A DNA stretch of 53,215 bases. It comes from a virus (lineage: Duplodnaviria > Caudoviricetes). A program made the translations under genes and the position numbers. The notes beneath the pieces are model-generated. The model did no database searches. It was not told where the DNA came from and saw only the letters and a list, made by a program, of their open reading frames with translations. Location: positions 1 to 53,215 of the IMG/VR virus record IMGVR_UViG_3300025769_000159; one strand, given 5' to 3'. This document shows, piece by piece, positions 18,153-35,490 of this stretch. Each line of letters begins with the position of its first letter. The stretch's first letter is position 1.

Positions 18153-18396
18153 AGATATATTCAATAAATCGTTTCCACAAGATAAGCAAATCGGAGGATC
18201 CCACTACAAAAATTTTACCATACAGCCTTATGAATTTATTTCAAAAAATGATTTATCTTTCTTTCAAGGATGTGTTGTGAAATATGTTTGTCGTTATTTA
18301 AACAAAAACGGTATACAAGACTTAGAAAAAATAATACACTATTGTGAATTAGAAATTAAAAAATTGAAAGATGGAAAGAAAACTAAAAGTTCTTGA
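18142..18396 (+). CDS. DUF3310-like protein (T7 gp1.7 nucleotide kinase-like)
   Basis: QIGGSHYK, GCVVKYVCR and KNGIQDLEK motifs. Confidence 0.8.
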   Translation: MTSKDIFNKSFPQDKQIGGSHYKNFTIQPYEFISKNDLSFFQGCVVKYVCRYLNKNGIQDLEKIIHYCELEIKKLKDGKKTKSS

Positions 18397-19630
18397 TTTA
18401 TTTTCAGGCATAGGGGGATTTGCTTTAGGCTTAGACTCTACTGGATTTTTTGAAACTGTAAAATTTGTTGAGATGGACAAATACTGTCAGAAAGTTTTAC
18501 AAAAAAACTTTCCTAACATACCAATCGAGGAGGATATAAAAAATGTCAAAGGAAAAGAATACGAAGCAGATGTCATTACTGGAGGATTTCCCTGCCAACC
18601 CTTCAGCGTCGCAGGTAAACAAAAAGGAACAAACGACAACCGCTATCTCTGGCCAGAAATGTTTAGACTCATTAGGGAGATCAAACCCGAATTCGTTATT
18701 GGGGAGAATGTGCAAGGACTTATTAACCTCCAAAACGGCGTGGTACTCAGACAGGTGCAAGACCAATTGGAAAGTGAAGGTTTCGAAGTCCAATGTTTCC
18801 TTATTCCAGCTTCAGGCATCGGTGCTTGGCACCAAAGATACAGAGTCTGGATTGTGGGCCACTCCCAACACAATGGATTACTTGCCGCCGAGAAGCGCTG
18901 CAGGGACGAAAAAGATTATGGAGGGTCACAGAAAAGGGAGAACAAGACCGTCGAACCTAAGAGAACAAGTGGATCCAGAGACAATGAAGATGTATCCAAC
19001 TCCAAAGGAGAGAGACTACAAGGGTGGAGAAGGGAAGAGAGTAATAGAGACACAAAAAGGTTACGCCAAAATTCGAAAAGGAACGGGGACAAGATTTGGA
19101 GCGAGTCTGAACGATGTAGTGGAATATCAAGAGAAGAAGATGTATCCAACACCAACACAAGACTCAGCATCGGAGAGAACGAAGAAGTACAAGCAAGGAG
19201 GGACACCTCTACCACTAGCGGTGAAGATGTATCCAACACCGACAGCATCAGACATAGAAGGTGGAGCAGCGAAGGATGTACAAATAAAGGATGGTCATTT
19301 CTTCAGAGAGAACAAGAAGGGAGAGAGATGGGGAGTGAAACTCAGAGATGCGATGGAAATGTATCCAACACCAACAGCAAGGGATCACAAAGACATGGGT
19401 TATCAACCAACATGGAAACCGAGCAGAGACAAGTCAGTTCCGAGAACAGTGTTGAAGAACAACAAACCTGGTGGCAAACTGAATCCAACGTTTGTGGAGT
19501 TCCTAATGGGATTTCCTATGAATTGGACAAAAACAGAGCCAACAGAATCAAAACCCTCGGTAACGCAATCGTCCCACAAATCGCAAGAGAGTTCGGACTC
19601 GCAATCAAAAAAGTTTTATCCGACTCCTAG
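18371..19630 (+). CDS. C5-cytosine DNA methyltransferase, alpha subunit (motifs I-VIII and X; lacks IX)
   Basis: LFSGIGG, GFPCQPFS, ENV, QRYRVW and LGNAIVP motifs; the variable region is low-complexity in this frame. Confidence 0.9.
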   Translation: MERKLKVLDLFSGIGGFALGLDSTGFFETVKFVEMDKYCQKVLQKNFPNIPIEEDIKNVKGKEYEADVITGGFPCQPFSVAGKQKGTNDNRYLWPEMFRLIREIKPEFVIGENVQGLINLQNGVVLRQVQDQLESEGFEVQCFLIPASGIGAWHQRYRVWIVGHSQHNGLLAAEKRCRDEKDYGGSQKRENKTVEPKRTSGSRDNEDVSNSKGERLQGWRREESNRDTKRLRQNSKRNGDKIWSESERCSGISREEDVSNTNTRLSIGENEEVQARRDTSTTSGEDVSNTDSIRHRRWSSEGCTNKGWSFLQREQEGREMGSETQRCDGNVSNTNSKGSQRHGLSTNMETEQRQVSSENSVEEQQTWWQTESNVCGVPNGISYELDKNRANRIKTLGNAIVPQIAREFGLAIKKVLSDS

Positions 19631-20144
19631 GGCTAATGAACCTGGTAGAACTACAAAGGGTTATGGTAGAGGTTTGGCAGAGTTAATGGAAGGTAAAGAA
19701 CAAGTAGAGCCAAAGAAAATGTACAGAACTCCAACTGCGATGGACAAGGGGGACAACAGTTTTAAATACGCAGCTAAAATATTAAAAGGTAAATTAAACA
19801 GATCTGAGTCTAAACAACCTGTACAGAAAACATTATCTATGGATGTAGCGATGGAACACTTAAAAGATAATCAACATCTTATAAATGAATACGATGAAAA
19901 ATTTAAAACAAGGCCACACTTACCTCCTAAAGATATTTTTTTAGAATATTTACGAAATAACTTAGACAAGAAAAAGTTAGTTGAAGATGATATAATTAAG
20001 AAGACTACTATTGATCATTGGTTAAGATCAGATCATTGTTTTGCTTATCCAACTGTAGAATATTGGAACATGATTAAACCTTATTTAAAAGAAATAAGGT
20101 TTGATAAAGAAATGACTACTGAAATAGAGAGTGATTGGGAATGA
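18543..20144 (+). CDS. C5 methyltransferase beta subunit in the +1 frame (motif IX plus repeated TRD-like modules)
   Basis: 533-aa overlapping ORF with a GAGGAGG RBS, LNPTFVEFLMGFP motif IX and seven (W/Y)-x-T-P units. Confidence 0.8.
   Translation: MSKEKNTKQMSLLEDFPANPSASQVNKKEQTTTAISGQKCLDSLGRSNPNSLLGRMCKDLLTSKTAWYSDRCKTNWKVKVSKSNVSLFQLQASVLGTKDTESGLWATPNTMDYLPPRSAAGTKKIMEGHRKGRTRPSNLREQVDPETMKMYPTPKERDYKGGEGKRVIETQKGYAKIRKGTGTRFGASLNDVVEYQEKKMYPTPTQDSASERTKKYKQGGTPLPLAVKMYPTPTASDIEGGAAKDVQIKDGHFFRENKKGERWGVKLRDAMEMYPTPTARDHKDMGYQPTWKPSRDKSVPRTVLKNNKPGGKLNPTFVEFLMGFPMNWTKTEPTESKPSVTQSSHKSQESSDSQSKKFYPTPRANEPGRTTKGYGRGLAELMEGKEQVEPKKMYRTPTAMDKGDNSFKYAAKILKGKLNRSESKQPVQKTLSMDVAMEHLKDNQHLINEYDEKFKTRPHLPPKDIFLEYLRNNLDKKKLVEDDIIKKTTIDHWLRSDHCFAYPTVEYWNMIKPYLKEIRFDKEMTTEIESDWE
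18852..19860 (+). repeat. Dispersed direct repeats ATGTATCCAAC(A/T)CC starting the TRD-like units
   Basis: Copies at 18990, 19140, 19227 and 19359; degenerate copies near 18855, 19614 and 19719. Confidence 0.85.
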
Positions 20145-21982
20145 AGATATTATTTAAACCTCAAACAGAGTGGTTACCACCTGAAGAGTTCAAAGATCTA
20201 TCTAGTTACGATGAGATAGCAATTGACTTAGAAACAAAAGACCCAAGTTTAAAAGATATGGGGTCAGGATCTATAACTGGTAAAGCAAAGATAGTTGGTA
20301 TAGCTTTAGCAGTTGAGGGTTGGTCAGCATATTATCCAATAGATCACGAAGGTGGGGGTAATATGGATAAGAAAAAAGTAATGAATTACTTTAGAACCGT
20401 TCTAAACTATCCTTCAACTAAGATATTTCACAATGCTATGTACGATGTATGCTTTATTAGGGCTGCAGGGCTAAAAATTAATGGAAAGATTGTAGATACC
20501 ATGATTGCTGGCTCTCTCGTGGACGAGAATCGCTTTCGATACGATTTAGGTAGTTTGGGTCGTGATTATGTCGGAATCGGCAAAAATGAGGCTGTATTGA
20601 AGGAAACTGCGAAGGAATGGGGCATAGATCCTAAGTCTGAGATGTACAAGCTACCTGCAATGTATGTTGGTGAGTATGCCGAACAAGATGCGGTATTAAC
20701 TTTAAAATTATGGCAAGAAATGAAGAAAGAAATATTAATAGAAGAGATTTCTTCTATCTTTGAATTAGAGACTGAACTTTTTCCTTGCCTCGTTGATATG
20801 CGTTTCTTAGGAGTTCGTGTAGATGTTGAAGGAGCTCATGCATTGAAACAAAAATTAGTTCAAGTAGAAAAAGAATGCTTGCAACAAGTGAAGAAAGCAA
20901 CAGGAATAGACACACAAATATGGGCTGCAAGATCCATTGAGAAAGTTTTTCAAAAACTATCTTTAGATTACGAACGAACACAGAAAACAGATTCACCATC
21001 ATTTACCAAAAACTTTCTACAAAATCACGAACATCCAATTGTTAAACAAATAGCACGTGCTAGAGAAATAAACAAAGCACACACAACTTTTATTGATACC
21101 ATATTAAAACACTCACATAAAGGTAGAATACACGCTGACATAAATCAATTGCGTTCAGATAATGGCGGAACTGTGACGGGTAGATTCTCGTACTCTAATC
21201 CAAACTTACAGCAAATTCCAGCACGTAACAAGGATCTTGGACCAATGATCAGATCTCTATTTATACCTGAAGAAGGACACACTTGGGGTTGCTTTGATTA
21301 CTCACAACAAGAACCAAGGCTTGTAGTTCATTATGCAGCATTAGATAATTTATATGGAGTAAGTGATGTAATCGAAGCATATAAAGATGGTGAAGCTGAC
21401 TTTCATCAGATCGTAGCTGAAATGGCAGACATACCAAGATCTCAAGCTAAAACAATTAATCTTGGGTTGTTCTATGGTATGGGTAAAAATAAATTACAAG
21501 CAGAATTAGGTATTAATGAAGACAAAGCTAAAGATTTATTTAAACAATATCATAACAGAGTTCCTTTTGTAAAAACCTTAATGGATAGTGTTATGCGTAA
21601 AGCAGCGGATAATGGTAGAATAAGAACTTGGTTAGGCCGTAGATGTAGATTTAATTTATGGGAACCGAATCAATATGGTATACACAAAGCCTTGCCTCAT
21701 GATGCAGCGTTGGCGGAACACGGACCAGGGATCAGAAGAGCTTACACTTACAAAGCATTAAATAAATTAATACAAGGATCAGCTGCTGATATGACTAAAA
21801 AGGCTATGGTAGAATTGCATAAGGAGGGTATCATACCACATATACAAGTACATGATGAACTTGATATATCTGTTAAAGGTAATGCAGATAAGATAAAAGA
21901 AATTATGGAGTCTGCGGTTGAATTAGAAGTGCCCAATAAGGTGGACTATGAATCAGGTTCAAATTGGGGTAATATTAAATGA
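20135..21982 (+). CDS. polA: Family A DNA polymerase (3'-5' exonuclease plus polymerase; no 5'-3' exonuclease)
   Basis: DLET, HNAMYD, TGRFS..PNLQQIP, DYSQQEPR, KTINLGLFYGMG, IQGSAAD and VHDE motifs. Confidence 0.97.
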   Translation: MGMKILFKPQTEWLPPEEFKDLSSYDEIAIDLETKDPSLKDMGSGSITGKAKIVGIALAVEGWSAYYPIDHEGGGNMDKKKVMNYFRTVLNYPSTKIFHNAMYDVCFIRAAGLKINGKIVDTMIAGSLVDENRFRYDLGSLGRDYVGIGKNEAVLKETAKEWGIDPKSEMYKLPAMYVGEYAEQDAVLTLKLWQEMKKEILIEEISSIFELETELFPCLVDMRFLGVRVDVEGAHALKQKLVQVEKECLQQVKKATGIDTQIWAARSIEKVFQKLSLDYERTQKTDSPSFTKNFLQNHEHPIVKQIARAREINKAHTTFIDTILKHSHKGRIHADINQLRSDNGGTVTGRFSYSNPNLQQIPARNKDLGPMIRSLFIPEEGHTWGCFDYSQQEPRLVVHYAALDNLYGVSDVIEAYKDGEADFHQIVAEMADIPRSQAKTINLGLFYGMGKNKLQAELGINEDKAKDLFKQYHNRVPFVKTLMDSVMRKAADNGRIRTWLGRRCRFNLWEPNQYGIHKALPHDAALAEHGPGIRRAYTYKALNKLIQGSAADMTKKAMVELHKEGIIPHIQVHDELDISVKGNADKIKEIMESAVELEVPNKVDYESGSNWGNIK

Positions 21983-28530: not shown

Positions 28531-28979
28531 TGGAAGAAAAGAATTTAGCTTATATAGCTGGTTTGTTTGATGGCGAGGGACATATTCAATACAAACAATA
28601 CATGCGTCAACGAAAGCATAACATTAAACCTTATCCAACTTGGTCAATTAGAATGGAAATGGCAATGACAGATCAATCTATTTTAATTTGGGTTTGTGAA
28701 ACTTTGGGAGTTGGAACTGTTGGAGAGAAAAGATATAAGACAAGGTACTCAAAAACTTGGAAAAAACAATGGCGTTGGAGGTGTTGTCACCGTGATGCTT
28801 ATTATGTTTCTAAACTTTTATGGCCTTTTGCTCACATAAAGTTAGATGGAATACAAAAAATAATAGCTCATTACGCTAAGAAAAAAATAAAAGTTAAAAC
28901 AAAAAACGAAGTAATAGATTTTAATTATTACAAATTTTGGAGAGAACACAATGTCAAAGAAAAAGAAAAAAGAAAATAA
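28530..28979 (+). CDS. Single-motif LAGLIDADG endonuclease-like protein
   Basis: LAYIAGLFDGEGHI. Confidence 0.8.
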   Translation: MEEKNLAYIAGLFDGEGHIQYKQYMRQRKHNIKPYPTWSIRMEMAMTDQSILIWVCETLGVGTVGEKRYKTRYSKTWKKQWRWRCCHRDAYYVSKLLWPFAHIKLDGIQKIIAHYAKKKIKVKTKNEVIDFNYYKFWREHNVKEKEKRK

Positions 28980-29616
28980 CCCACAGATAGAAGTCAGAAC
29001 TTTTAATTGGGGTCCTTGTGTCATAAAACTTAAGATACAAGATGATTTTAAAAAAGTGTTATTAAGTGAGATTAAAAAATCTAAAGAAGACTATAGACAC
29101 AAACTTGCGGGTCAAATAGAAAAAGAAATAGGTTATACTCAAGAGTCTAGAGATAAAATTATACCTTATCTTGCACCATACTTAGGTATTTATGATCAAA
29201 TGTTTCAAAAGTATCAAGGAAAGTTTTACGATTCAAAACCAGAATACGCACTAACGGCTCTTTGGTGTAATTTTCAACGTCAATATGAATTTAACCCACC
29301 ACACGATCATGATGGTAAATTATCATTTGTAATATATCTATCCGTGCCTGATCCTTTGAAGAAAGAAAACGAAAAGTATAGTGGTAAATCTTGCGGACCC
29401 GGAGGCATACAGTTTATGTATGGTGAAGGAATTAGAGATTGTATTACTTATATGTCTTACTTTCCTAAAGACTGTGAGATGTTTATCTTTCCTGCGTGGT
29501 TGAAACATTGGGTTAGTCCGTTTGACTCTGATTGTGTGAGAGTATCAGTCAGTGGCAATGTCCACGACTCAGCGCCCTTAAATCAAATTAAGAAAGGAAT
29601 GTTAGTTAAGGAATGA
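28951..29616 (+). CDS. 2OG-Fe(II) oxygenase
   Basis: EFNPPHDH, LSFVIYL, FPAWLKHWVSP and RVSVSGN motifs. Confidence 0.85.
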   Translation: MSKKKKKENNPQIEVRTFNWGPCVIKLKIQDDFKKVLLSEIKKSKEDYRHKLAGQIEKEIGYTQESRDKIIPYLAPYLGIYDQMFQKYQGKFYDSKPEYALTALWCNFQRQYEFNPPHDHDGKLSFVIYLSVPDPLKKENEKYSGKSCGPGGIQFMYGEGIRDCITYMSYFPKDCEMFIFPAWLKHWVSPFDSDCVRVSVSGNVHDSAPLNQIKKGMLVKE

Positions 29617-31152: not shown

Positions 31153-31440
31153 ATGCCTAAGAAAAGAAGAAAAGCTATCACCACTGAGACAACTCCTGAT
31201 ATACCTTTTCAGAAGGTCAGAGTGGAGTGGGTCGATTGCGTAAGTGATTCTGGCTGGGCTAGTGAAAAAGAATTTAATAAGATGAGATTAGCTAAACCCA
31301 TTAATGAAGGTTGGTTATACTCTAAAGATAAAATTTCTATAAAATTATTTGCATCATACGACAAAGATGAGGATGGAATTAATTTTGGGGATCGAACTAT
31401 GATTCCTCGTCAGTGGGTGAAGAAGATTCAGAAGATATAA
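31153..31440 (+). CDS. Conserved phage hypothetical protein
   Basis: VEWVDCVSDSGW...GWL...IP motif; TG-n-TATAAA ends 7 nt upstream, so possibly leaderless. Confidence 0.7.
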   Translation: MPKKRRKAITTETTPDIPFQKVRVEWVDCVSDSGWASEKEFNKMRLAKPINEGWLYSKDKISIKLFASYDKDEDGINFGDRTMIPRQWVKKIQKI

Positions 31441-31912
31441 CTTCACCTTCTATTTGTTTTGCATTAAGGATTGGTTCGTAATCTTCTAATATTTGTTTCA
31501 TTTTATTTTCTAATTCTTTTTCGGATAGATCCTCTAACTTACCTGTTTTAATTATTTTTCTATCGATATACAATCCTGCAGCTTTTCCTCTATTAGCTTC
31601 AGCATTTACTGCTGATGAAAACGATCCTTTCTTTAGTGCTGCCTCTCGTAATCTTGCAAGTTCTGCAACATGGCCTTCGTAAGTCACTTCATGTTTTCTT
31701 AATCTTTCTTCTTTTAGTTCTCCAATATGTTTCACTACGAGTGGAGACAATCTTGGGTTGGTGAGCTCCGAACCTTCTTGTCTAGCTCTTTTTGGAGAAT
31801 AACCTGCCCTAAGTGCCGCCTCAGTTTTTGTAACTGGACCATTTTCATCACCGAAAACCAGGAATTCTGCAAATCTTTGTTGCATTTCAGTTAATCTCTT
31901 AGGTACGCCCAT
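31397..31912 (-). CDS. terS: Terminase small subunit
   Basis: LTEMQQRFAE...TEAALRAGYS...L..P.V HTH and SAVNAE..RGKAAGLY motif. Confidence 0.85.
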   Translation of the reverse strand: MGVPKRLTEMQQRFAEFLVFGDENGPVTKTEAALRAGYSPKRARQEGSELTNPRLSPLVVKHIGELKEERLRKHEVTYEGHVAELARLREAALKKGSFSSAVNAEANRGKAAGLYIDRKIIKTGKLEDLSEKELENKMKQILEDYEPILNAKQIEGEVISSESSSPTDEES

Positions 31913-31915
31913 AAG

Positions 31916-31949
31916 TTGACAATTTAGGGTAACTCTCCTATAAAGTCAA
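31916..31949. promoter_or_regulatory. Overlapping divergent promoters
   Basis: + strand TTGACA-17-TATAAA; - strand TTGACT-17-TAAATT. Confidence 0.7.
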
Positions 31950-31951
31950 GA

Positions 31952-32104
31952 ATGAAAGTTTACAAGGGAAATGTGGTCTATTCTAATTTAGAACGAGAAA
32001 TAGAAAGATTAAAATTAGATAAAAGAAAACTAGAAAAAGTTAATAATAAGCTTAAAAAGGAGTTAAAAGATGTTCGTAAAGCACTTACAAGAGTACCTAG
32101 ATAA
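31952..32104 (+). CDS. Small coiled-coil protein (50 aa)
   Basis: Read by hand; ATG lies 7 nt after the -10 box. Confidence 0.55.
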   Translation: MKVYKGNVVYSNLEREIERLKLDKRKLEKVNNKLKKELKDVRKALTRVPR

Positions 32105-32312
32105 ATTCACTGAAGGATCCAACGGTATGAGGGGAAACGCAGTCAGTAATGCTAGAATTTACATCATGACTTCTAAGGGTTATTTAGAAGAAATTAAAAG
32201 AATTGAAGTTCATGAAAGCAATAATCCAAAAGACACATCAATAAGGGTAGTTTTAAAACCTAATACAGAGGAAAAATTAATATTACCTCAAGGCTACATT
32301 AAAGATTACTAG
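32070..32312 (+). CDS. Hypothetical protein
   Basis: AAGGAG RBS, 80 aa. Confidence 0.7.
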   Translation: MFVKHLQEYLDKFTEGSNGMRGNAVSNARIYIMTSKGYLEEIKRIEVHESNNPKDTSIRVVLKPNTEEKLILPQGYIKDY

Positions 32313-32341
32313 GGGCATGATATCTTACACTACCACGCCCC
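32312..32341. terminator. Hairpin between convergent transcription units
   Basis: GGGGCATG...CACGCCCC stem. Confidence 0.5.
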
Positions 32342-32351
32342 CATACTCATT

Positions 32352-32561
32352 TTAGGAGGATATATCTATTGGAAATACAGAGTTAGAGTCTTCGTTATCT
32401 TTATCCTTTCTCCATTTTTCAAACTCTACTTTGTCTTTTTCATCCTTATCCCATTGAGTTCTTAAAACTTGCATGGTTGTATCTTCTATTTTTTTAAGAC
32501 CTTCTTTGGTGTCAACTAAAGTAATTATTTTTTTAATTAAATCTAATTTATCTTTTTCCAT
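32352..32561 (-). CDS. Early-type hypothetical protein
   Basis: AGGAGG RBS. Confidence 0.7.
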   Translation of the reverse strand: MEKDKLDLIKKIITLVDTKEGLKKIEDTTMQVLRTQWDKDEKDKVEFEKWRKDKDNEDSNSVFPIDISS

Positions 32562-32577
32562 CTTTCTTACCTCCTTT

Positions 32578-32796
32578 CTAATAACAATCTGAACAATACT
32601 CTCTGTTTGATTGGCTATGATTTTTGTATAAATAATTATTACACTTCTTAGCCTTACAAATAATAGTTCCTTTTATTAATTTTTTCTTTTCTTCTTTCTT
32701 TTCAATCTCTATTAATTCATCAAAAGTTTCATTTCCTTTCAACTCTACACCACAAAAGGATTTTAATTTTTTAACTTCCTTATGGTTTATTTTCAT
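32578..32796 (-). CDS. Early-type protein with C-terminal Zn finger
   Basis: CKAKKC...CSDC. Confidence 0.65.
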   Translation of the reverse strand: MKINHKEVKKLKSFCGVELKGNETFDELIEIEKKEEKKKLIKGTIICKAKKCNNYLYKNHSQSNREYCSDCY

Positions 32797-32797
32797 A

Positions 32798-32944
32798 TCA
32801 ATACCCCAACCAACTTTTTACATCTTTTGTTTTGTAAACTTTTTTTCTTCCTAAAGTTTTAAAAAAGTCTTCCAACTCATCTAAGTTTCCATGTTGCTTG
32901 ATTATGAAAACTGCTCTTTTAAGTGTTATTGTTATTGGTTCCAT
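32798..32944 (-). CDS. Early-type small protein (48 aa, ...VKSWLGY)
   Basis: Read by hand; GAAAGGA RBS. Confidence 0.6.
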   Translation of the reverse strand: MEPITITLKRAVFIIKQHGNLDELEDFFKTLGRKKVYKTKDVKSWLGY

Positions 32945-33074
32945 TTTTTTTCTTCCTTTCTAACTTTAATTTATATTTAGTATGATACACTCCACCCACA
33001 CAACTCAAAATATTTCTCAAAGTTTGTTCCATGAGCCATTTTACATTATCTTGAGTTGGTAAGTTTTTTTTCAT
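32919..33074 (-). CDS. Early-type small protein (51 aa, MKKNLPTQD...)
   Basis: Read by hand; AAGGA RBS. Confidence 0.5.
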   Translation of the reverse strand: MKKNLPTQDNVKWLMEQTLRNILSCVGGVYHTKYKLKLERKKKNGTNNNNT

Positions 33075-33123
33075 TCTAAGTCCTTTATAGTCCTATTAAT
33101 AGTAAAATCAATAATTTTCTTCA

Positions 33124-33216
33124 TTACAGATCCTCAATTAAATGGACTATAATTATCATTAATAGGCATACAAAACCACCTACACCCAAAATCATTGGTA
33201 CATACCACCACTCCAT
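33124..33216 (-). CDS. Membrane micropeptide (30 aa, MEWWYVPMILG...)
   Basis: GGGAG RBS and TAATG coupling. Confidence 0.55.
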   Translation of the reverse strand: MEWWYVPMILGVGGFVCLLMIIIVHLIEDL

Positions 33217-33281
33217 TATTTATCTCCCACTAATCTTAATATTATTAATACAATTACCGTCGCAATAAAAAACCACTCCAT
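33216..33281 (-). CDS. Membrane micropeptide (21 aa, MEWFFIATVIVLIILRLVGDK)
   Basis: AAAGGAG RBS and TAATG coupling. Confidence 0.55.
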   Translation of the reverse strand: MEWFFIATVIVLIILRLVGDK

Positions 33282-33451
33282 TATTTCAACACTCCTTTCT
33301 TCTCTTTTACATAAGTTGTTAGTTCATCAAATAAAGCACTCAAACAAAAGTCCCCTAAATCCCCACTGTTTAAAGTGTGTATTTTTCCGTTTGGGTCTTT
33401 GATCTCAATTTTAAGACTTTCCCACTCCCATTCATTTTTTTTATTTTTCAT
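33281..33451 (-). CDS. Early-type small protein (56 aa)
   Basis: Read by hand; GGAGG RBS. Confidence 0.6.
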   Translation of the reverse strand: MKNKKNEWEWESLKIEIKDPNGKIHTLNSGDLGDFCLSALFDELTTYVKEKKGVLK

Positions 33452-33597
33452 TTTTTACCCTCCGTTAGTTTTTTTATTATTGATAATAACATTTTAATAA
33501 TAGTTTTAGATGAACCATCATAATTTTTTTGTGCAATATCCACATCATCTAATAACCAATTAGTTAAAAAGTCTTTTTCTTTTTTAGTTAGTTTCAT
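33448..33597 (-). CDS. Early-type small protein (49 aa, MKLTKKEKDFL...)
   Basis: Read by hand; AAAGGAG RBS. Confidence 0.6.
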   Translation of the reverse strand: MKLTKKEKDFLTNWLLDDVDIAQKNYDGSSKTIIKMLLSIIKKLTEGKK

Positions 33598-33611
33598 ATC
33601 TTTGCTCCTTT

Positions 33612-34058
33612 CTATTCGACCCTCATTATTTCGATGTCTTGCATCATTTCATCAACTTGATATTTTTCTCCAAGTTCCATTTCTTTTAAATCTTTAATGG
33701 TGTCATTGTCATATTGATACTCATTAAAAAATTTAATTGGATCGTCAACTCTGTTTGATGTATGGCAACCACATTTTTTATCAAATAGTTCATTATGGTC
33801 ACAAGCATCGCCACTCCAACGAACAATGAAAAATTTCATTCCTTTTAAATCTTTCACTAATTCTTCATAACTTGGTTGTGGTTCTTCTTTTAATGGTTCT
33901 AAATGTTTAAAATGAATTAATTCATCATCATTCAAACCATAGTATTGTTTTGGATCAACATTTGATCTCATGCATTCCGTAACATAAGGGTCTGTTATAA
34001 ATTGACCTTGACAGACGAAACCTTTCGCCCCACTTTGATTAGTTATTATTTTTACCAT
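33612..34058 (-). CDS. Early-type hypothetical protein
   Basis: 148 aa; GAAAGGA RBS. Confidence 0.7.
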   Translation of the reverse strand: MVKIITNQSGAKGFVCQGQFITDPYVTECMRSNVDPKQYYGLNDDELIHFKHLEPLKEEPQPSYEELVKDLKGMKFFIVRWSGDACDHNELFDKKCGCHTSNRVDDPIKFFNEYQYDNDTIKDLKEMELGEKYQVDEMMQDIEIMRVE

Positions 34059-34073
34059 TTTCTTTTATCCTTT

Positions 34074-34646
34074 CTATTTGTTTATTTCTTCTTCTGACCA
34101 AGTCCAACCAAGTGACACATCAAAAGCTTTGATTGTTTTACCGTTCACACTAAATTCAGATCTTTCAAGTGTGATTATCTCATCTTCGTTAAAATCTCTG
34201 ATAGATATATTTTCATCATCAATAATTTTAAAGATTGATGTAGGTTCACAATCCATAGTTTTTTTCTGAATTTGATTAAACTTTTTAATTTGGTCTAGTT
34301 CAACCATAGGAATTGACCATCCATTCCATTTATGATTAGTCACATATCCTTCAATATAATGTTCAATAGTATATTCTCCGTTTTCATTTACACTATCTGA
34401 CAACCAATGATCATGAAATAATTTTACCTTTTTCCATCTCATTGGCATATCGTTGGTGAATTTAATTTTTTCACTAACAACATCATCAATAAACTTTCCA
34501 TTGTCTATATCTATAGATTTAACAAATCCCCCACCTTGAGGACATATAGAAATTTTATTGTCTTTGAATTCTGTAATTTCCATATAATTTTTATTATCTG
34601 AATTACAGATATATTTATTGTTTTTTATTAACTCTTTTATATTCAT
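34074..34646 (-). CDS. Early-type hypothetical protein
   Basis: 190 aa; WNGWSIP and GWTWSE motifs; AAGGAG RBS just 3' of the ribozyme. Confidence 0.75.
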   Translation of the reverse strand: MNIKELIKNNKYICNSDNKNYMEITEFKDNKISICPQGGGFVKSIDIDNGKFIDDVVSEKIKFTNDMPMRWKKVKLFHDHWLSDSVNENGEYTIEHYIEGYVTNHKWNGWSIPMVELDQIKKFNQIQKKTMDCEPTSIFKIIDDENISIRDFNEDEIITLERSEFSVNGKTIKAFDVSLGWTWSEEEINK

Positions 34647-34669
34647 CTTATCTTCTCCTTTTTGTTTCT

Positions 34670-34721
34670 GATCTCATCAGTTGAGGATTAACCTCAAGAC
34701 CCCCTTGAGGGGGTTTCGATC
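34670..34721 (-). ncRNA. Hammerhead ribozyme, type II
   Basis: Minus strand reads GAUC-GAAA-CCCCC-UCAA-GGGGG-UC-UUGAGG-UUAAU-CCUCAA-CUGAUGA-GAUC: the full conserved core with three perfectly paired stems. Confidence 0.93.
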
Positions 34722-35323
34722 TATTTCAAATTGTTTTTAATCAAACTTTGATTGTAAGTGTTATTGATAGCATTTACAATTTTACCTTTAATTTGATTTT
34801 GTTCTTGTTCTCTCTTTTTAGTTTCTTCCGAGTTGTTTTCTCTTCTCATTCTTATTAGGTCGAGAGGGTCGGAAAGATTATATTCAGAAACTTTTTCAAC
34901 CTTAAAAGAAACTTTCTCCATTACTTTGTTTACTGCTTTAATTCTCTCAATCTGTTTCTTTTGCAACAAACTTAAAGAATTATAATCAATCTTAAAAAGA
35001 AAGCTTTCAAGATCAATTTCAGTTGTTCCATATTTCCAAAGTCCAATTGATTTGATGTGTTCATTCTCGTCTATAAATAAAACATCAACTGCATTATATG
35101 TTGATTTTTTAACTGCACACCATTTATTAGTTTTAGGATTTAAAGTACAAAAACAAACTCTGTCGCCTTTTGTTTTGTTTGTTTCAATCCATGTTCTTCT
35201 TTTAGTTTTTAATCTAAAACCCCAAGGATAATTTGAAACCTCTAAAGCATTATCAAAACTGTCTTTGTTGTATATATATTTAGTCATTGTTTCTTCTTTC
35301 GTTTTGTTTTTTATATTATTCAT
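34721..35323 (-). CDS. First gene of the early-type operon, hypothetical
   Basis: YPWGFRLKT...W..K.STY motif; its stop codon overlaps the ribozyme 5' end. Confidence 0.75.
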   Translation of the reverse strand: MNNIKNKTKEETMTKYIYNKDSFDNALEVSNYPWGFRLKTKRRTWIETNKTKGDRVCFCTLNPKTNKWCAVKKSTYNAVDVLFIDENEHIKSIGLWKYGTTEIDLESFLFKIDYNSLSLLQKKQIERIKAVNKVMEKVSFKVEKVSEYNLSDPLDLIRMRRENNSEETKKREQEQNQIKGKIVNAINNTYNQSLIKNNLK

Positions 35324-35490
35324 ATCAAGGAGATTATAGGATAATAAAGAGTAATCAAGTCAATAATTGAATAATTTTCGATAGCTCTTGAATTTACTAC
35401 ATATAGTAGGTCCTAATTTCCAGGCACAAGATATTGTGTTTTCAACTTGAAATTGTTTCTTTTTAAATGTAAGTGTCACCTTAAATAATA

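What the first reader, a model, noticed from the sequence alone, without database searches (positions are those of the whole stretch)
34670..34721. Type II hammerhead ribozyme splitting the early-type operon between genes 1 and 2
On the coding (minus) strand: stem II GAUC/GAUC, GAAA, stem III CCCCC-UCAA-GGGGG, the GUC cleavage triplet, stem I UUGAGG-UUAAU-CCUCAA, then CUGAUGA. Every core nucleotide is present. Predicted cleavage is between 34698 and 34697. The ribozyme starts in the stop codon of the 200-aa gene and ends about 10 nt before the AAGGAG RBS of the next gene. Self-cleavage would give the downstream mRNA a 5'-OH, hairpin-protected end, which is a poor substrate for 5'-monophosphate-dependent RNase E decay. 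Hammerheads in phage intergenic regions are known, but their function is largely unresolved. Inference: protein-free mRNA processing or stabilisation of early genes.
Basis: partly seen in the sequence, partly recalled or inferred. Interest (0 to 1): 0.85.

Follow-up and report, generated by a model that had tools for sequence, protein, structure and literature searches.

The report
Type II hammerhead ribozyme between phage genes
A small self-cutting RNA (a hammerhead ribozyme) sits between two small genes of a marine phage, and it belongs to a large, compact family of such ribozymes that mark gene borders in related uncultured phages; the kind of element is already known.

Summary
On the minus strand at 34670-34721 there is a complete type II hammerhead. 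All core nucleotides are present, with stems of 6 (I), 4 (II) and 5+1 (III) base pairs. Cleavage is predicted between 34698 and 34697. Chance does not explain it: a loose descriptor gave 2 hits in 300 shuffled windows and a strict one gave 0.

Rfam Hammerhead_II is the only meaningful match, at 28.8 bits, below the cut-off of 37.

The main evidence is comparative. A 17-nt word from the element occurs 131 times in IMG/VR viral contigs. Of these, 127 are hammerheads, with many compensatory changes in the stems. All 71 occurrences in bacterial and archaeal genomes are chance hits with no hammerhead.

Family members sit tightly between cistrons, overlapping the upstream stop codon. They end mostly 20-27 nt before the next start codon. 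They often lie at mosaic breakpoints. They lack the loop I-tail pseudoknot usual in type II hammerheads.

Self-cleavage and its effect on mRNA fate are inferred, not shown. "Early operon" is unverified. Verdict: a real new member of a known kind, of moderate interest.

The parts
34662..34723 (-). Whole element as matched by the family model R1 (2 nt 5' flank, 52-nt hammerhead, 8-nt tail)
   Evidence: 83.1 bits; Rfam RF02276 28.8 bits at 34662-34721
34718..34721 (-). Stem II, 5' strand GAUC (11.4-11.1); G34721 is also the last base of the UAG stop codon of the upstream gene
   Evidence: In the family, the upstream stop overlaps stem II by 1 nt in 55 of 95 contexts
34714..34717 (-). Core G12 A13 A14 plus A15.1 (GAAA)
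   Evidence: invariant in 69 of 69 aligned relatives
34700..34713 (-). Stem III hairpin CCCCC-UCAA-GGGGG
   Evidence: 5 of 6 helix pairs show changes on both sides across relatives
34698..34699 (-). U16.1 and C17; predicted cleavage 3' of C34698, between 34698 and 34697
   Evidence: The triplet is GUC in 54, GUA in 14 and UUC in 2 of 70 distinct relatives
34681..34697 (-). Stem I hairpin UUGAGG-UUAAU-CCUCAA (6 bp, 5-nt loop). It becomes the extreme 5' end of the downstream RNA after cleavage
   Evidence: 6 of 6 pairs show changes on both sides; every loop variant starts with U
34674..34680 (-). Core C3-A9 (CUGAUGA)
   Evidence: invariant in the alignment, but fixed by the way relatives were collected
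34670..34673 (-). Stem II, 3' strand GAUC (10.1-10.4)
   Evidence: compensatory variants GACC/GGUC, GAGC/GCUC and GGAC/GUCC occur in relatives
34664..34669 (-). Conserved 3' tail AGAAAC. Its AG completes a possible alternative hairpin CUGAU-GAG-AUCAG (34680-34668) that would sequester half of the core
   Evidence: Present in all 11 hammerheads found through the flanking proteins. In a tail-unbiased sample AG follows GAUC in 77 of 124, and a 5-bp CUGAU:AUCAG pairing is possible in 85 of 124 against 17 of 124 with shuffled tails. The hairpin is predicted in the MFE folds
34644..34660 (-). RBS AAGGAG (34660-34655) and ATG (34646-34644) of the downstream gene; 23 nt lie between stem II and the ATG
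   Evidence: The family spacing from stem II to the start codon is mostly 20-27 nt. The region is unpaired in the fold of the 3' product
34074..34646 (-). Downstream gene, 190 aa, function unknown
   Evidence: no Pfam match and a weak phrog_9945 match; no usable Atlas hit; homologs in 32 IMG/VR loci
34721..35323 (-). Upstream gene (ORF of 200 aa; probable true start at the second ATG, 35287), function unknown
   Evidence: Relatives conserve GAAAGG..AACAATGACT at the second ATG
35333..35363 (-). Promoter-like site TTGACT - 19 nt - TATAAT upstream of the first gene of the minus-strand block
   Evidence: Read. The automatic scan allows spacers of 16-18 nt only and did not list it. Comparable sites lie before homologs in L038, L043 and L046. 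A consensus match only

Best explanation
The element is a genuine type II hammerhead self-cleaving ribozyme. It is encoded on the minus strand between the first and second genes of a block of small accessory genes in an uncultured marine phage that resembles Pelagibacter phages of the HTVC023P/HTVC027P type.

Proposed mechanism:
- The block is transcribed from a promoter upstream of gene 1.
- Once the 52-nt motif has emerged it folds into the three-way junction and cuts itself 3' of C34698.
- The two products are held together only by the 4-bp stem II, so they separate.
- The upstream mRNA then ends just after its stop codon, in the G+C-rich stem III hairpin with a 2',3'-cyclic phosphate.
- The downstream mRNA begins with a 5'-OH directly at the stem I hairpin. 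It can refold its leftover core into a second hairpin (CUGAU/AUCAG), which leaves the A-rich RBS region unpaired.
- The net effect is that one polycistronic transcript becomes separate, end-protected messages with a standard 5' leader, so each gene's expression is uncoupled from its neighbours.

Shown here: the motif, its significance against chance, its conservation and covariation, and its fixed placement between cistrons. Inferred: transcription through the site, catalysis, and the consequences for mRNA stability and translation.
For: Motif and statistics.

Family:
- 10 of the 30 informative loci that encode a homolog of the 190-aa gene carry the same element just upstream. These copies show compensatory changes in stems I and III and a GUC or GUA triplet.
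- The 17-mer CUGAUGAGAUCAGAAAC occurs 131 times in 113 IMG/VR stretches. 127 of these have CGAAA upstream plus a stem I of at least 4 bp, and 108 pass the strict descriptor.
- The same 17-mer in 596 Gb of prokaryote genomes gives 71 hits, about the number expected by chance, and 0 of them are hammerheads.
- In an alignment of 69 distinct copies, 13 of 16 pairs change on both sides. The covariation score is 0.599 against 0.129 in shuffles (0 of 500 reach it) and 0.075-0.119 when the partners are slid.

Placement, over 97 distinct contexts:
- 95 have an upstream ORF ending within -40 to +4 nt of stem II; in 55 the stop overlaps stem II by 1 nt.
- 95 have a downstream ORF, mostly starting 20-27 nt after stem II.
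- 21 of 90 loci have 2-4 copies, all on one strand and typically 250-730 nt apart, flanking single small genes.

Product folds: the 3' product forms two 5'-terminal hairpins and a free RBS; the 5' product ends in the stem III hairpin.

Precedent: hammerheads flanking genes in prophages cleave about 2-kb polycistronic RNAs in vitro, and in vivo in E. coli (PMC3088659, passages read). Engineered hammerhead insulators (RiboJ) normalise the 5'-UTR and increase mRNA stability (PMC7536230, passages read).
Against: - No experiment and no transcript-end data exist. RNA-library contigs cover only small pieces. One contig (X3 record 9) runs across the whole element, which could be uncleaved RNA or DNA.
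- The Rfam score is below the curated cut-off (28.8 against 37). Only 1 of 31 family copies in 17 loci reaches it.
- The loop I-3' tail pseudoknot is not detectable here. The longest Watson-Crick run between loop I and tail averages 2.73, against 2.90 for permuted partners. In the type II ribozymes tested by Perreault et al. this pseudoknot was critical for fast cleavage at 0.5 mM Mg2+. The tertiary contact needed for activity at cellular Mg2+ is therefore unidentified.
- The thermodynamic MFE fold forms the competing CUGAU/AUCAG hairpin rather than stem II.
- The element is dispensable. It is absent from 20 of 30 informative homologous loci, from 12 of 13 loci directly downstream of gene-1 homologs, and from the three nearest deposited phages.
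- The alignment rows were picked by a descriptor that demands paired stems, so '100% paired' is by construction. 19 copies with a mismatch or bulge were left out.
Confidence: 0.8

Rival explanations
1. The sequence is kept mainly for a DNA-level role. A nearly invariant linker of about 60 bp between small genes offers homology for recombination, so genes or gene cassettes are exchanged between co-infecting phages at these points. On this reading ribozyme activity is secondary, or is what makes such a linker tolerable inside an operon.
For: Homology between relatives starts or stops exactly at the element:
- Window versus L002: unrelated upstream gene, identical hammerhead, near-identical downstream gene.
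- Window versus L042: homologous upstream gene, identical hammerhead, unrelated downstream gene.

Among 93 contexts, 36 pairs share only the upstream flank, 36 share only the downstream flank and 5 share both.

In a like-for-like count over the same 113 loci, junctions with a hammerhead gave 48 one-sided pairs against 6 two-sided. Junctions without one gave 365 against 196. The odds ratio is 4.3 and Fisher p is 2e-4.

The flanking genes are extremely diverse: 86 distinct downstream proteins fall in 63 clusters.
Against: - A DNA linker needs no RNA fold. Yet the stems vary by compensatory changes while the 11 catalytic core positions stay fixed, which shows selection on the RNA structure.
- The pair counts are not independent, because related contigs are counted many times.
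- The loci were sampled because they hold the element.
- Exact duplicate contexts were removed first.
- High mosaicism is also seen at junctions without the element (365 one-sided pairs).
Confidence: 0.12
2. The ribozyme is a regulated switch rather than a constitutive cutter. The CUGAU/AUCAG hairpin and the ribosome compete with the active fold, so the amount of cleavage depends on translation. A ribosome terminating on the stop codon unwinds stem II. A 30S subunit binding about 9 nt downstream opens the alternative hairpin.
For: - The stop codon overlaps stem II in 55 of 95 contexts, and the spacing to the start codon is narrow.
- AG after stem II, and therefore the 5-bp alternative hairpin, is enriched: 85 of 124 copies against 17 of 124 with shuffled tails.
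- Three copies in L079 have a different stem II sequence and carry an extra AUCAG further downstream.
- The alternative hairpin is in the MFE structure.
Against: - The CUGAU side is invariant core, so no covariation can test the hairpin.
- The AG enrichment is partly inherited; about half of the sample is the AGAAAC subgroup.
- 39 of 124 copies lack the full 5-bp pairing.
- The overlap with the stop codon may simply reflect genome compaction.
- Nothing here measures translation or cleavage.
Confidence: 0.06
3. The element is not a functional ribozyme. It could be a chance or decayed hammerhead-like sequence, or merely a pair of hairpins acting as a terminator or RNase barrier.
For: - The Rfam score is below the gathering threshold.
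- The plus-strand reading of stem III was flagged as terminator-like.
- No activity data exist.
Against: - 0-2 hits in 300 shuffled windows.
- 127 of 131 occurrences of the 17-mer in viral contigs are complete hammerheads, against 0 of 71 in cellular genomes.
- The core is invariant while the stems covary.
- There is no U-run after either hairpin on the coding strand.
- Terminator-like sites in the region are no more frequent than in shuffles: 3 found, 2.3 expected.
Confidence: 0.02

Closest known systems
Type II hammerhead ribozymes (Rfam RF02276 Hammerhead_II; Perreault et al. 2011, PMC3088659)
   Same: The catalytic core is the same (CUGAUGA, GAAA, A15.1-U16.1, cleavage after C17). The permuted topology is the same, with loops on stems I and III and an open stem II. 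It is the best and only meaningful Rfam match.
   Different: The score is below the curated cut-off (28.8 against 37). Stem II has 4 bp where the model has 2. No loop I-3' tail pseudoknot is detectable, although most type II examples have one. Instead there is a conserved A/AG (often AGAAAC) after stem II and a 5-nt loop I that always begins with U.
Multiple hammerheads flanking genes in prophages (Clostridium scindens, Azorhizobium caulinodans, Agrobacterium tumefaciens ardA locus; PMC3088659, passages read)
   Same: The ribozymes lie between cistrons of one transcript and flank single genes or short blocks. Family relatives of the window's element occur 2-4 times per operon. The published examples cut polycistronic RNA in vitro and in E. 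coli.
   Different: The published examples are in prophages of cultured bacteria. This family was found only in viral contigs: 0 of 71 word hits in 185,579 species genomes are hammerheads. It is not in 50,697 deposited phage records at blastn sensitivity. The window has a single copy. I could not see that paper's figures or supplementary alignments, so I cannot say whether marine copies of this subgroup were already in its data set.
RiboJ-type synthetic ribozyme insulators (hammerhead plus a downstream hairpin; PMC7536230, passages read)
   Same: It works alike in principle. A hammerhead placed just upstream of an RBS removes the upstream RNA context, leaves a hairpin-structured 5'-OH leader and a free RBS, and raises mRNA stability.
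   Different: RiboJ is engineered from a satellite-RNA hammerhead and has an added 23-nt hairpin. In the natural element the second hairpin would form from the leftover core itself, and the upstream product is a complete mRNA rather than a short leader. This is an analogy of function, not of descent.
Conserved intergenic linkers at mosaic boundaries of phage genomes (for example promoter-stem-loop elements in hyperplastic regions of T4-type phages; recalled, no call)
   Same: A short conserved sequence between small accessory genes at which homology between related phages begins or ends.
   Different: Those elements are promoters or terminators, not ribozymes. The comparison rests on my memory of the literature, and a recombination role for hammerheads is untested.

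Membership tests
Hammerhead ribozyme (clan CL00010) | Conserved catalytic core: C3 U4 G5 A6 N7 G8 A9, G12 A13 A14, A15.1-U16.1 pair, and H (not G) at position 17 | tested here: met
   All are present at 34680-34674, 34717-34714 and 34699-34698. They are invariant in 69 aligned relatives. Position 17 is C or A.
Hammerhead ribozyme (clan CL00010) | Three helices around the core, supported by covariation | tested here: met
   16 pairs were counted, and 13 change on both sides. The covariation score is 0.599, against 0.129 in shuffles and no more than 0.119 for slid partners. Caveat: the rows were preselected for paired stems, and 19 imperfect copies were left out.
Hammerhead type II (RF02276) | Topology: stems I and III closed by loops, with the 5' and 3' ends in stem II | tested here: met
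   Order on the RNA: stem II 5' strand, GAAA, stem III hairpin, cleavage site, stem I hairpin, CUGAUGA, stem II 3' strand.
Hammerhead type II (RF02276) | Score at or above Rfam's gathering threshold (37 bits) | tested here: not met
   28.8 bits. Only 1 of 31 family copies in 17 loci passes, at 37.9 bits. This is an annotation threshold, not a biological criterion.
Hammerhead type II (RF02276) | Pseudoknot of 4 or more bp between loop I and the 3' tail after stem II. It is present in the majority of type II examples but not in all (about 40% of all hammerheads) | tested here: not met
   Loop I (UUAAU) is not complementary to the tail (AGAAAC...). Over 124 copies the mean longest Watson-Crick run is 2.73, against 2.90 for permuted partners. 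This is a common feature, not a defining one.
Hammerhead ribozyme (clan CL00010) | Site-specific self-cleavage giving 2',3'-cyclic phosphate and 5'-OH ends | not testable with these tools
   Only assembled contigs of RNA libraries were available, and they cannot show molecule ends.

The most novel reading that the evidence does not exclude
This hammerhead family may be a dual-purpose module border in marine phages. At the RNA level it would cut operons of small accessory genes into insulated, end-protected single-gene messages with a standard leader, like a natural RiboJ, possibly tuned by the CUGAU/AUCAG alternative hairpin. At the DNA level its near-invariant stretch of about 60 bp would serve as the homology at which genes are swapped between phages. 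Ribozyme-bounded genes would then behave as exchangeable cassettes. The family would also use a tertiary contact other than the type II pseudoknot. The invariant U at the start of loop I and the near-invariant A after stem II are candidates for that contact.
Probability: 0.25. Interest if true: 0.7.

Novelty: new member of a known kind. Interest (0 to 1): 0.42.

Why it matters
What genome-encoded hammerheads do in bacteria and phages is still open (review PMC6765202, passages read). This element itself is an ordinary example of the kind. It does, however, lead to a large, very uniform family with several useful properties:
- The copies are fixed in register between a stop codon and the next RBS.
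- The family is almost invisible to Rfam at its curated threshold.
- It was absent from the cellular genomes scanned for its 17-nt word and from the deposited phages compared by blastn.
- It is enriched at mosaic breakpoints.

Together these give many natural "experiments": the same ribozyme with different neighbours, and the same genes with and without the ribozyme. They could be used to test whether such ribozymes act as mRNA insulators, as stabilisers or as recombination linkers. The family is also a compact natural part of about 58 nt for operon design.

Tried and rejected
- **Second copies in the window.** None were found. The family model R1 was run with filters off and the next best hit scored 13.7 bits. 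My descriptor found one site only.
- **Pseudoknot between loop I and the tail.** No signal.
- **Extension of stem II by the flanks.** The pairing UUUG/CAAA is possible in the window, but by eye it is not conserved in relatives whose upstream gene differs.
- **Terminator reading.** Rejected. There is no U-run on the coding strand, and terminator-like sites are at shuffle level.
- **Function of the neighbouring genes.**
  - No Pfam family matched either flanking gene. There was only a weak phrog_9945 match for the 190-aa protein.
  - ESM Atlas gave nothing usable.
  - Of 63 representative proteins encoded downstream of family members, 5 match Pfam families, all of unknown function. The 14 matched PHROG families are all unannotated.
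  - The 200-aa protein is not homologous to the equally long gp33 of HTVC027P.
- **Deposited phages.** blastn of the 71-nt element against 50,697 records found no match. R1 found no match at E<=1 in HTVC027P, HTVC023P or 023Pt_psg01. That tool warns that an empty answer without a positive control in the same call shows little.
- **Cellular genomes.** 71 word hits and 0 hammerheads. Only the exact 17-mer was sought, so diverged prophage copies would be missed.
- **Expression.**
  - 22 runs were listed, with no RNA run above a 0.10 share of words.
  - Four RNA-library runs were laid at 90% likeness. They gave 15 short contig pieces from related phages and no table of ends.
  - This says nothing for or against transcription or cleavage, and no habitat claim is made from it.
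- **Papers.**
  - 'hammerhead' plus 'pelagiphage' returned one unrelated essay.
  - 'type II hammerhead' + phage + metagenom returned two papers.
  - 'self-cleaving ribozyme' + phage + flank + hammerhead + marine, from 2012 on, returned six papers, none about this family judging by title and abstract.
  - From these three searches I found no description of this marine-phage subgroup.
The alignments of PMC3088659 (its Dataset S1) could already contain such sequences.
Full report
**What is there**

Read on the minus strand, the window shows, directly after the last sense codon of ORF 34721-35323:

UAG AUC GAAA CCCCC-UCAA-GGGGG UC UUGAGG-UUAAU-CCUCAA CUGAUGA GAUC AGAAAC AAA AAGGAG ... AUG.

This is a complete hammerhead in the type II permutation:
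- Stem II: GAUC/GAUC, 34721-34718 with 34673-34670.
- G12-A14 and A15.1: 34717-34714.
- Stem III hairpin: 34713-34700.
- U16.1 and C17: 34699 and 34698.
- Stem I hairpin: 34697-34681.
- C3-A9: 34680-34674.

Cleavage is predicted between 34698 and 34697.

**Is it more than chance?**

- A loose descriptor (core plus stems I>=4, III>=3, II>=2 bp) finds one site in the real window. It finds 2 sites in 300 dinucleotide-preserving shuffles. The strict version (6/5/4 bp) finds 0 in 300.
- Rfam lists nothing at gathering thresholds for the whole window.
- With E-value reporting, the only meaningful match is RF02276 Hammerhead_II at 34662-34721(-). It scores 28.8 bits against a cut-off of 37. E is 6.3e-4 for the 401-nt search and 2e-5 for the record.

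**Genomic setting**

- The window is a complete IMG/VR virus record of 53,215 bp, estimated about 85% complete.
- Its large terminase DNA is about 70% identical to Pelagibacter phages HTVC027P and HTVC023P and to phage 023Pt_psg01.
- Primase, helicase, DNA polymerase and exonuclease lie on the plus strand up to about 30.5 kb. Large terminase and portal follow from 36.1 kb.
- Between them lies a minus-strand block of small genes (31.4-35.3 kb) that ends in a TerS-like gene.
- HTVC027P and 023Pt_psg01 show the same arrangement: exonuclease, a minus-strand TerS with small genes, then TerL.
- The hammerhead lies between the first gene (ORF of 200 aa) and the second gene (190 aa) of this block.
- Upstream of gene 1 there is a TTGACT - 19 nt - TATAAT site at 35363-35333. 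Comparable sites precede homologs of gene 1 in three of ten printed loci.
- Those loci also show that the conserved start of gene 1 is the second ATG (35287). It is preceded by GAAAG-type RBS sequence.
- Both flanking proteins are of unknown function.
- Nothing tells when the block is expressed, so "early" remains a guess.

**Comparative evidence**

Relatives found through the flanking proteins:
- Homologs of the 190-aa protein occur in 32 IMG/VR loci. Two of these are cut off at the gene start.
- Of the other 30, the ten closest (L002-L010, L015) carry the element immediately upstream. The remaining 20 have an ordinary intergenic region.
- The copies differ by compensatory changes. Stem I is UUGAGG/CCUCAA, UUGUGU/ACACAA or UUAGGG/CCCUAA. 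Stem III varies in sequence and length. The triplet is GUC or GUA.
- Of 13 loci with a homolog of gene 1, only L042 has the element directly downstream.

Relatives found through a 17-nt word (CUGAUGA, the 3' strand of stem II, and the tail AGAAAC):
- It is present 131 times in 113 IMG/VR stretches.
- 127 occurrences have CGAAA upstream and a stem I of at least 4 bp. 108 pass the strict descriptor. 4 are unrelated sequence.
- The 19 copies that pass only the relaxed test mostly have two U-U oppositions, a bulge in stem III, or one mismatch in stem II.
- As a control, the same word in 596 Gb of bacterial and archaeal genomes gives 71 hits. That is roughly the number expected by chance for a 17-mer. 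None has a hammerhead.

Covariation:
- I aligned 69 distinct strict copies.
- The core positions are invariant.
- 13 of 16 base pairs show changes on both sides. Some positions carry up to five pair types.
- The covariation score is 0.599. It is 0.129 in shuffles (0 of 500 as high) and 0.075-0.119 when partners are slid by 1-3 columns.
- The figure "100% paired" follows from how the rows were chosen and carries no weight. The variety of pair types and the slid controls do.
- Stem II also covaries: GACC/GGUC, GAGC/GCUC and GGAC/GUCC.

Coverage by existing resources:
- Rfam at its curated threshold recognises only 1 of 31 copies in 17 loci.
- The element is not found by blastn in 50,697 deposited phage records.
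- The family model does not find it in the three nearest cultured or deposited phages.

**Anatomy of the family**

- Stem I is always 6 bp with a 5-nt loop, and the loop starts with U in all 20 loop variants.
- In 97 distinct contexts, 95 have an upstream ORF whose stop lies within -40 to +4 nt of stem II. In 55 of them the G of UAG is the first stem II nucleotide.
- 95 have a downstream ORF. Its start is mostly 20-27 nt after stem II (23 nt in the window). The median length is 89 aa.
- 21 of 90 loci have two to four copies, always on one strand. They are typically 250-730 nt apart and so bracket single small genes.
- In a few contexts the element is followed not by an RBS but by a conserved promoter-like stretch and then a gene.

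The tail:
- In that sample, A follows stem II in 117 of 124 and AG in 77 of 124.
- The tail AGAAAC accounts for roughly half of a slightly larger sample: 67 of 142.
- No complementarity between loop I and the tail is detectable. The pseudoknot typical of type II hammerheads, which was critical for fast cleavage in the cases tested by Perreault et al., is therefore missing.
- The AG does extend a 5-bp inverted repeat, CUGAU-GAG-AUCAG. This pairing is possible in 85 of 124 copies, against 17 of 124 with shuffled tails.
- It is retained through an extra downstream AUCAG in three L079 copies whose stem II has another sequence.
- The hairpin is mutually exclusive with the active fold. ViennaRNA prefers it both in the uncut RNA and in the 3' product.
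- Its role is open. It could lock the product, act as an inhibitor, or be irrelevant.

**Mosaic junctions**

- Window versus L002: the upstream genes are unrelated. Identity begins at the element and continues through the 190-aa gene.
- Window versus L042: the upstream genes are homologous and the element is identical. Similarity ends just after the RBS.
- Over 93 contexts, 36 pairs share only the upstream flank, 36 share only the downstream flank and 5 share both.
- With one ORF-junction procedure applied to all 113 loci, junctions holding the element gave 48 one-sided and 6 two-sided pairs. The 1,182 junctions without it gave 365 and 196. The odds ratio is 4.3 and Fisher p is 2e-4.
- The pairs are not independent and the loci were sampled through the element. 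I treat this as suggestive only.

**How it most likely works**

The best-supported reading is the ordinary one for this kind of element:
- The minus-strand block is transcribed as a polycistronic RNA.
- The hammerhead folds and cuts after C34698.
- The 4-bp stem II lets the halves separate.
- The upstream message ends in the stem III hairpin with a cyclic phosphate.
- The downstream message starts with a 5'-OH at the base of the stem I hairpin and has an unpaired A-rich RBS.

By analogy with prophage hammerheads that cut polycistronic RNA and with engineered ribozyme insulators, this would uncouple the stability and translation of neighbouring genes.

The motif, its conservation and its placement are shown. 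Transcription, catalysis and the downstream effects are inferred.

The available RNA data were assembled contigs of four marine RNA libraries. They cover only short pieces from related phages and cannot show ends.

**Comparison with what is known, and novelty**

- The element meets the defining features of a hammerhead and of the type II topology.
- It fails only the Rfam score threshold and lacks the common, non-defining pseudoknot.
- Type II hammerheads, their abundance in bacteria, and hammerheads flanking genes in prophages were published in 2011 (PMC3088659, passages read).
- A 2019 review still lists their function as unresolved (PMC6765202, passages read).
- Three literature searches found no description of this marine-phage subgroup.
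- I could not see the supplementary alignments of the 2011 paper.

I therefore rate the finding as a new member of a known kind. At family level there are some variant features: no pseudoknot, a conserved tail, strict intercistronic register, and enrichment at mosaic borders.

**Verdict**

The ribozyme identity is very likely (about 0.9 or more). The processing and insulating role is plausible but untested. "Early operon" is unsupported. Interest is moderate (0.42), because the kind is known. The family is nevertheless a good substrate for testing what phage hammerheads are for.

Noticed in passing
window 35285-35323 (-): The 200-aa ORF probably starts at its second ATG (35287, giving 188 aa). 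Relatives conserve an RBS-like GAAAGG..AACA just before ATGACT at that position, and the first ATG lies only about 10 nt after the promoter-like -10 box.
   Followed up: partly
window 31397-35323 (-), compared with L310 and L311: A minus-strand block of small genes ending in a TerS-like gene sits between the replication and packaging modules. HTVC027P and 023Pt_psg01 have the same layout, but the small genes are not the same. The 200-aa protein is unrelated to the equally long gp33 of HTVC027P.
   Followed up: partly
L047, L101, L106, L116 (about 70 nt downstream of their hammerheads): In several relatives the hammerhead is followed not by an RBS but by a conserved stretch (AAUUAUAUUUUUUAUAGUUGAUUUUACUAUUUAUAGGACUAUAAAGG). 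It resembles a promoter (TTGATT - 16 nt - TATAAA) and precedes the next gene, so in these cases the ribozyme would end one transcript just before another begins.
   Followed up: no
L079 3333-6289 (+): One contig carries four hammerheads on one strand. Three of them have a different stem II (GGAC/GUCC or GACC/GGUC) and an added AUCAG a few bases downstream, which keeps the potential pairing with the core CUGAU.
   Followed up: partly
L210 and L213, downstream of their hammerheads: The leaders after the ribozyme consist of C/A-rich short repeats (AACC or AAACCC units) instead of the usual A-rich spacer with an RBS.
   Followed up: no
L052, L067, L084, L092 and others: A subgroup has stem III of the form C-UU-GGGGG ... 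CCCCC-UU-G, with two consecutive U-U oppositions next to the core. It recurs in many contigs, so it looks like a tolerated or selected feature rather than decay.
   Followed up: no
L056 11459-11578 (-): A viral contig that carries a family hammerhead also matches the Rfam Betaproteobacteria-1 sRNA well above its threshold (87.2 bits against 49.4).
   Followed up: no
window 18371-21982 (+): Two long overlapping ORFs (18371-19630 and 18543-20144) precede the ORF that matches DNA polymerase (20135-21982). This may be a split or frameshifted polymerase region.
   Followed up: no
window 28951-29616 (+): A 2OG-Fe(II) oxygenase-like gene (phrog_81, E 1.9e-29) lies at the end of the replication module. 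It is a common auxiliary gene of marine phages.
   Followed up: no
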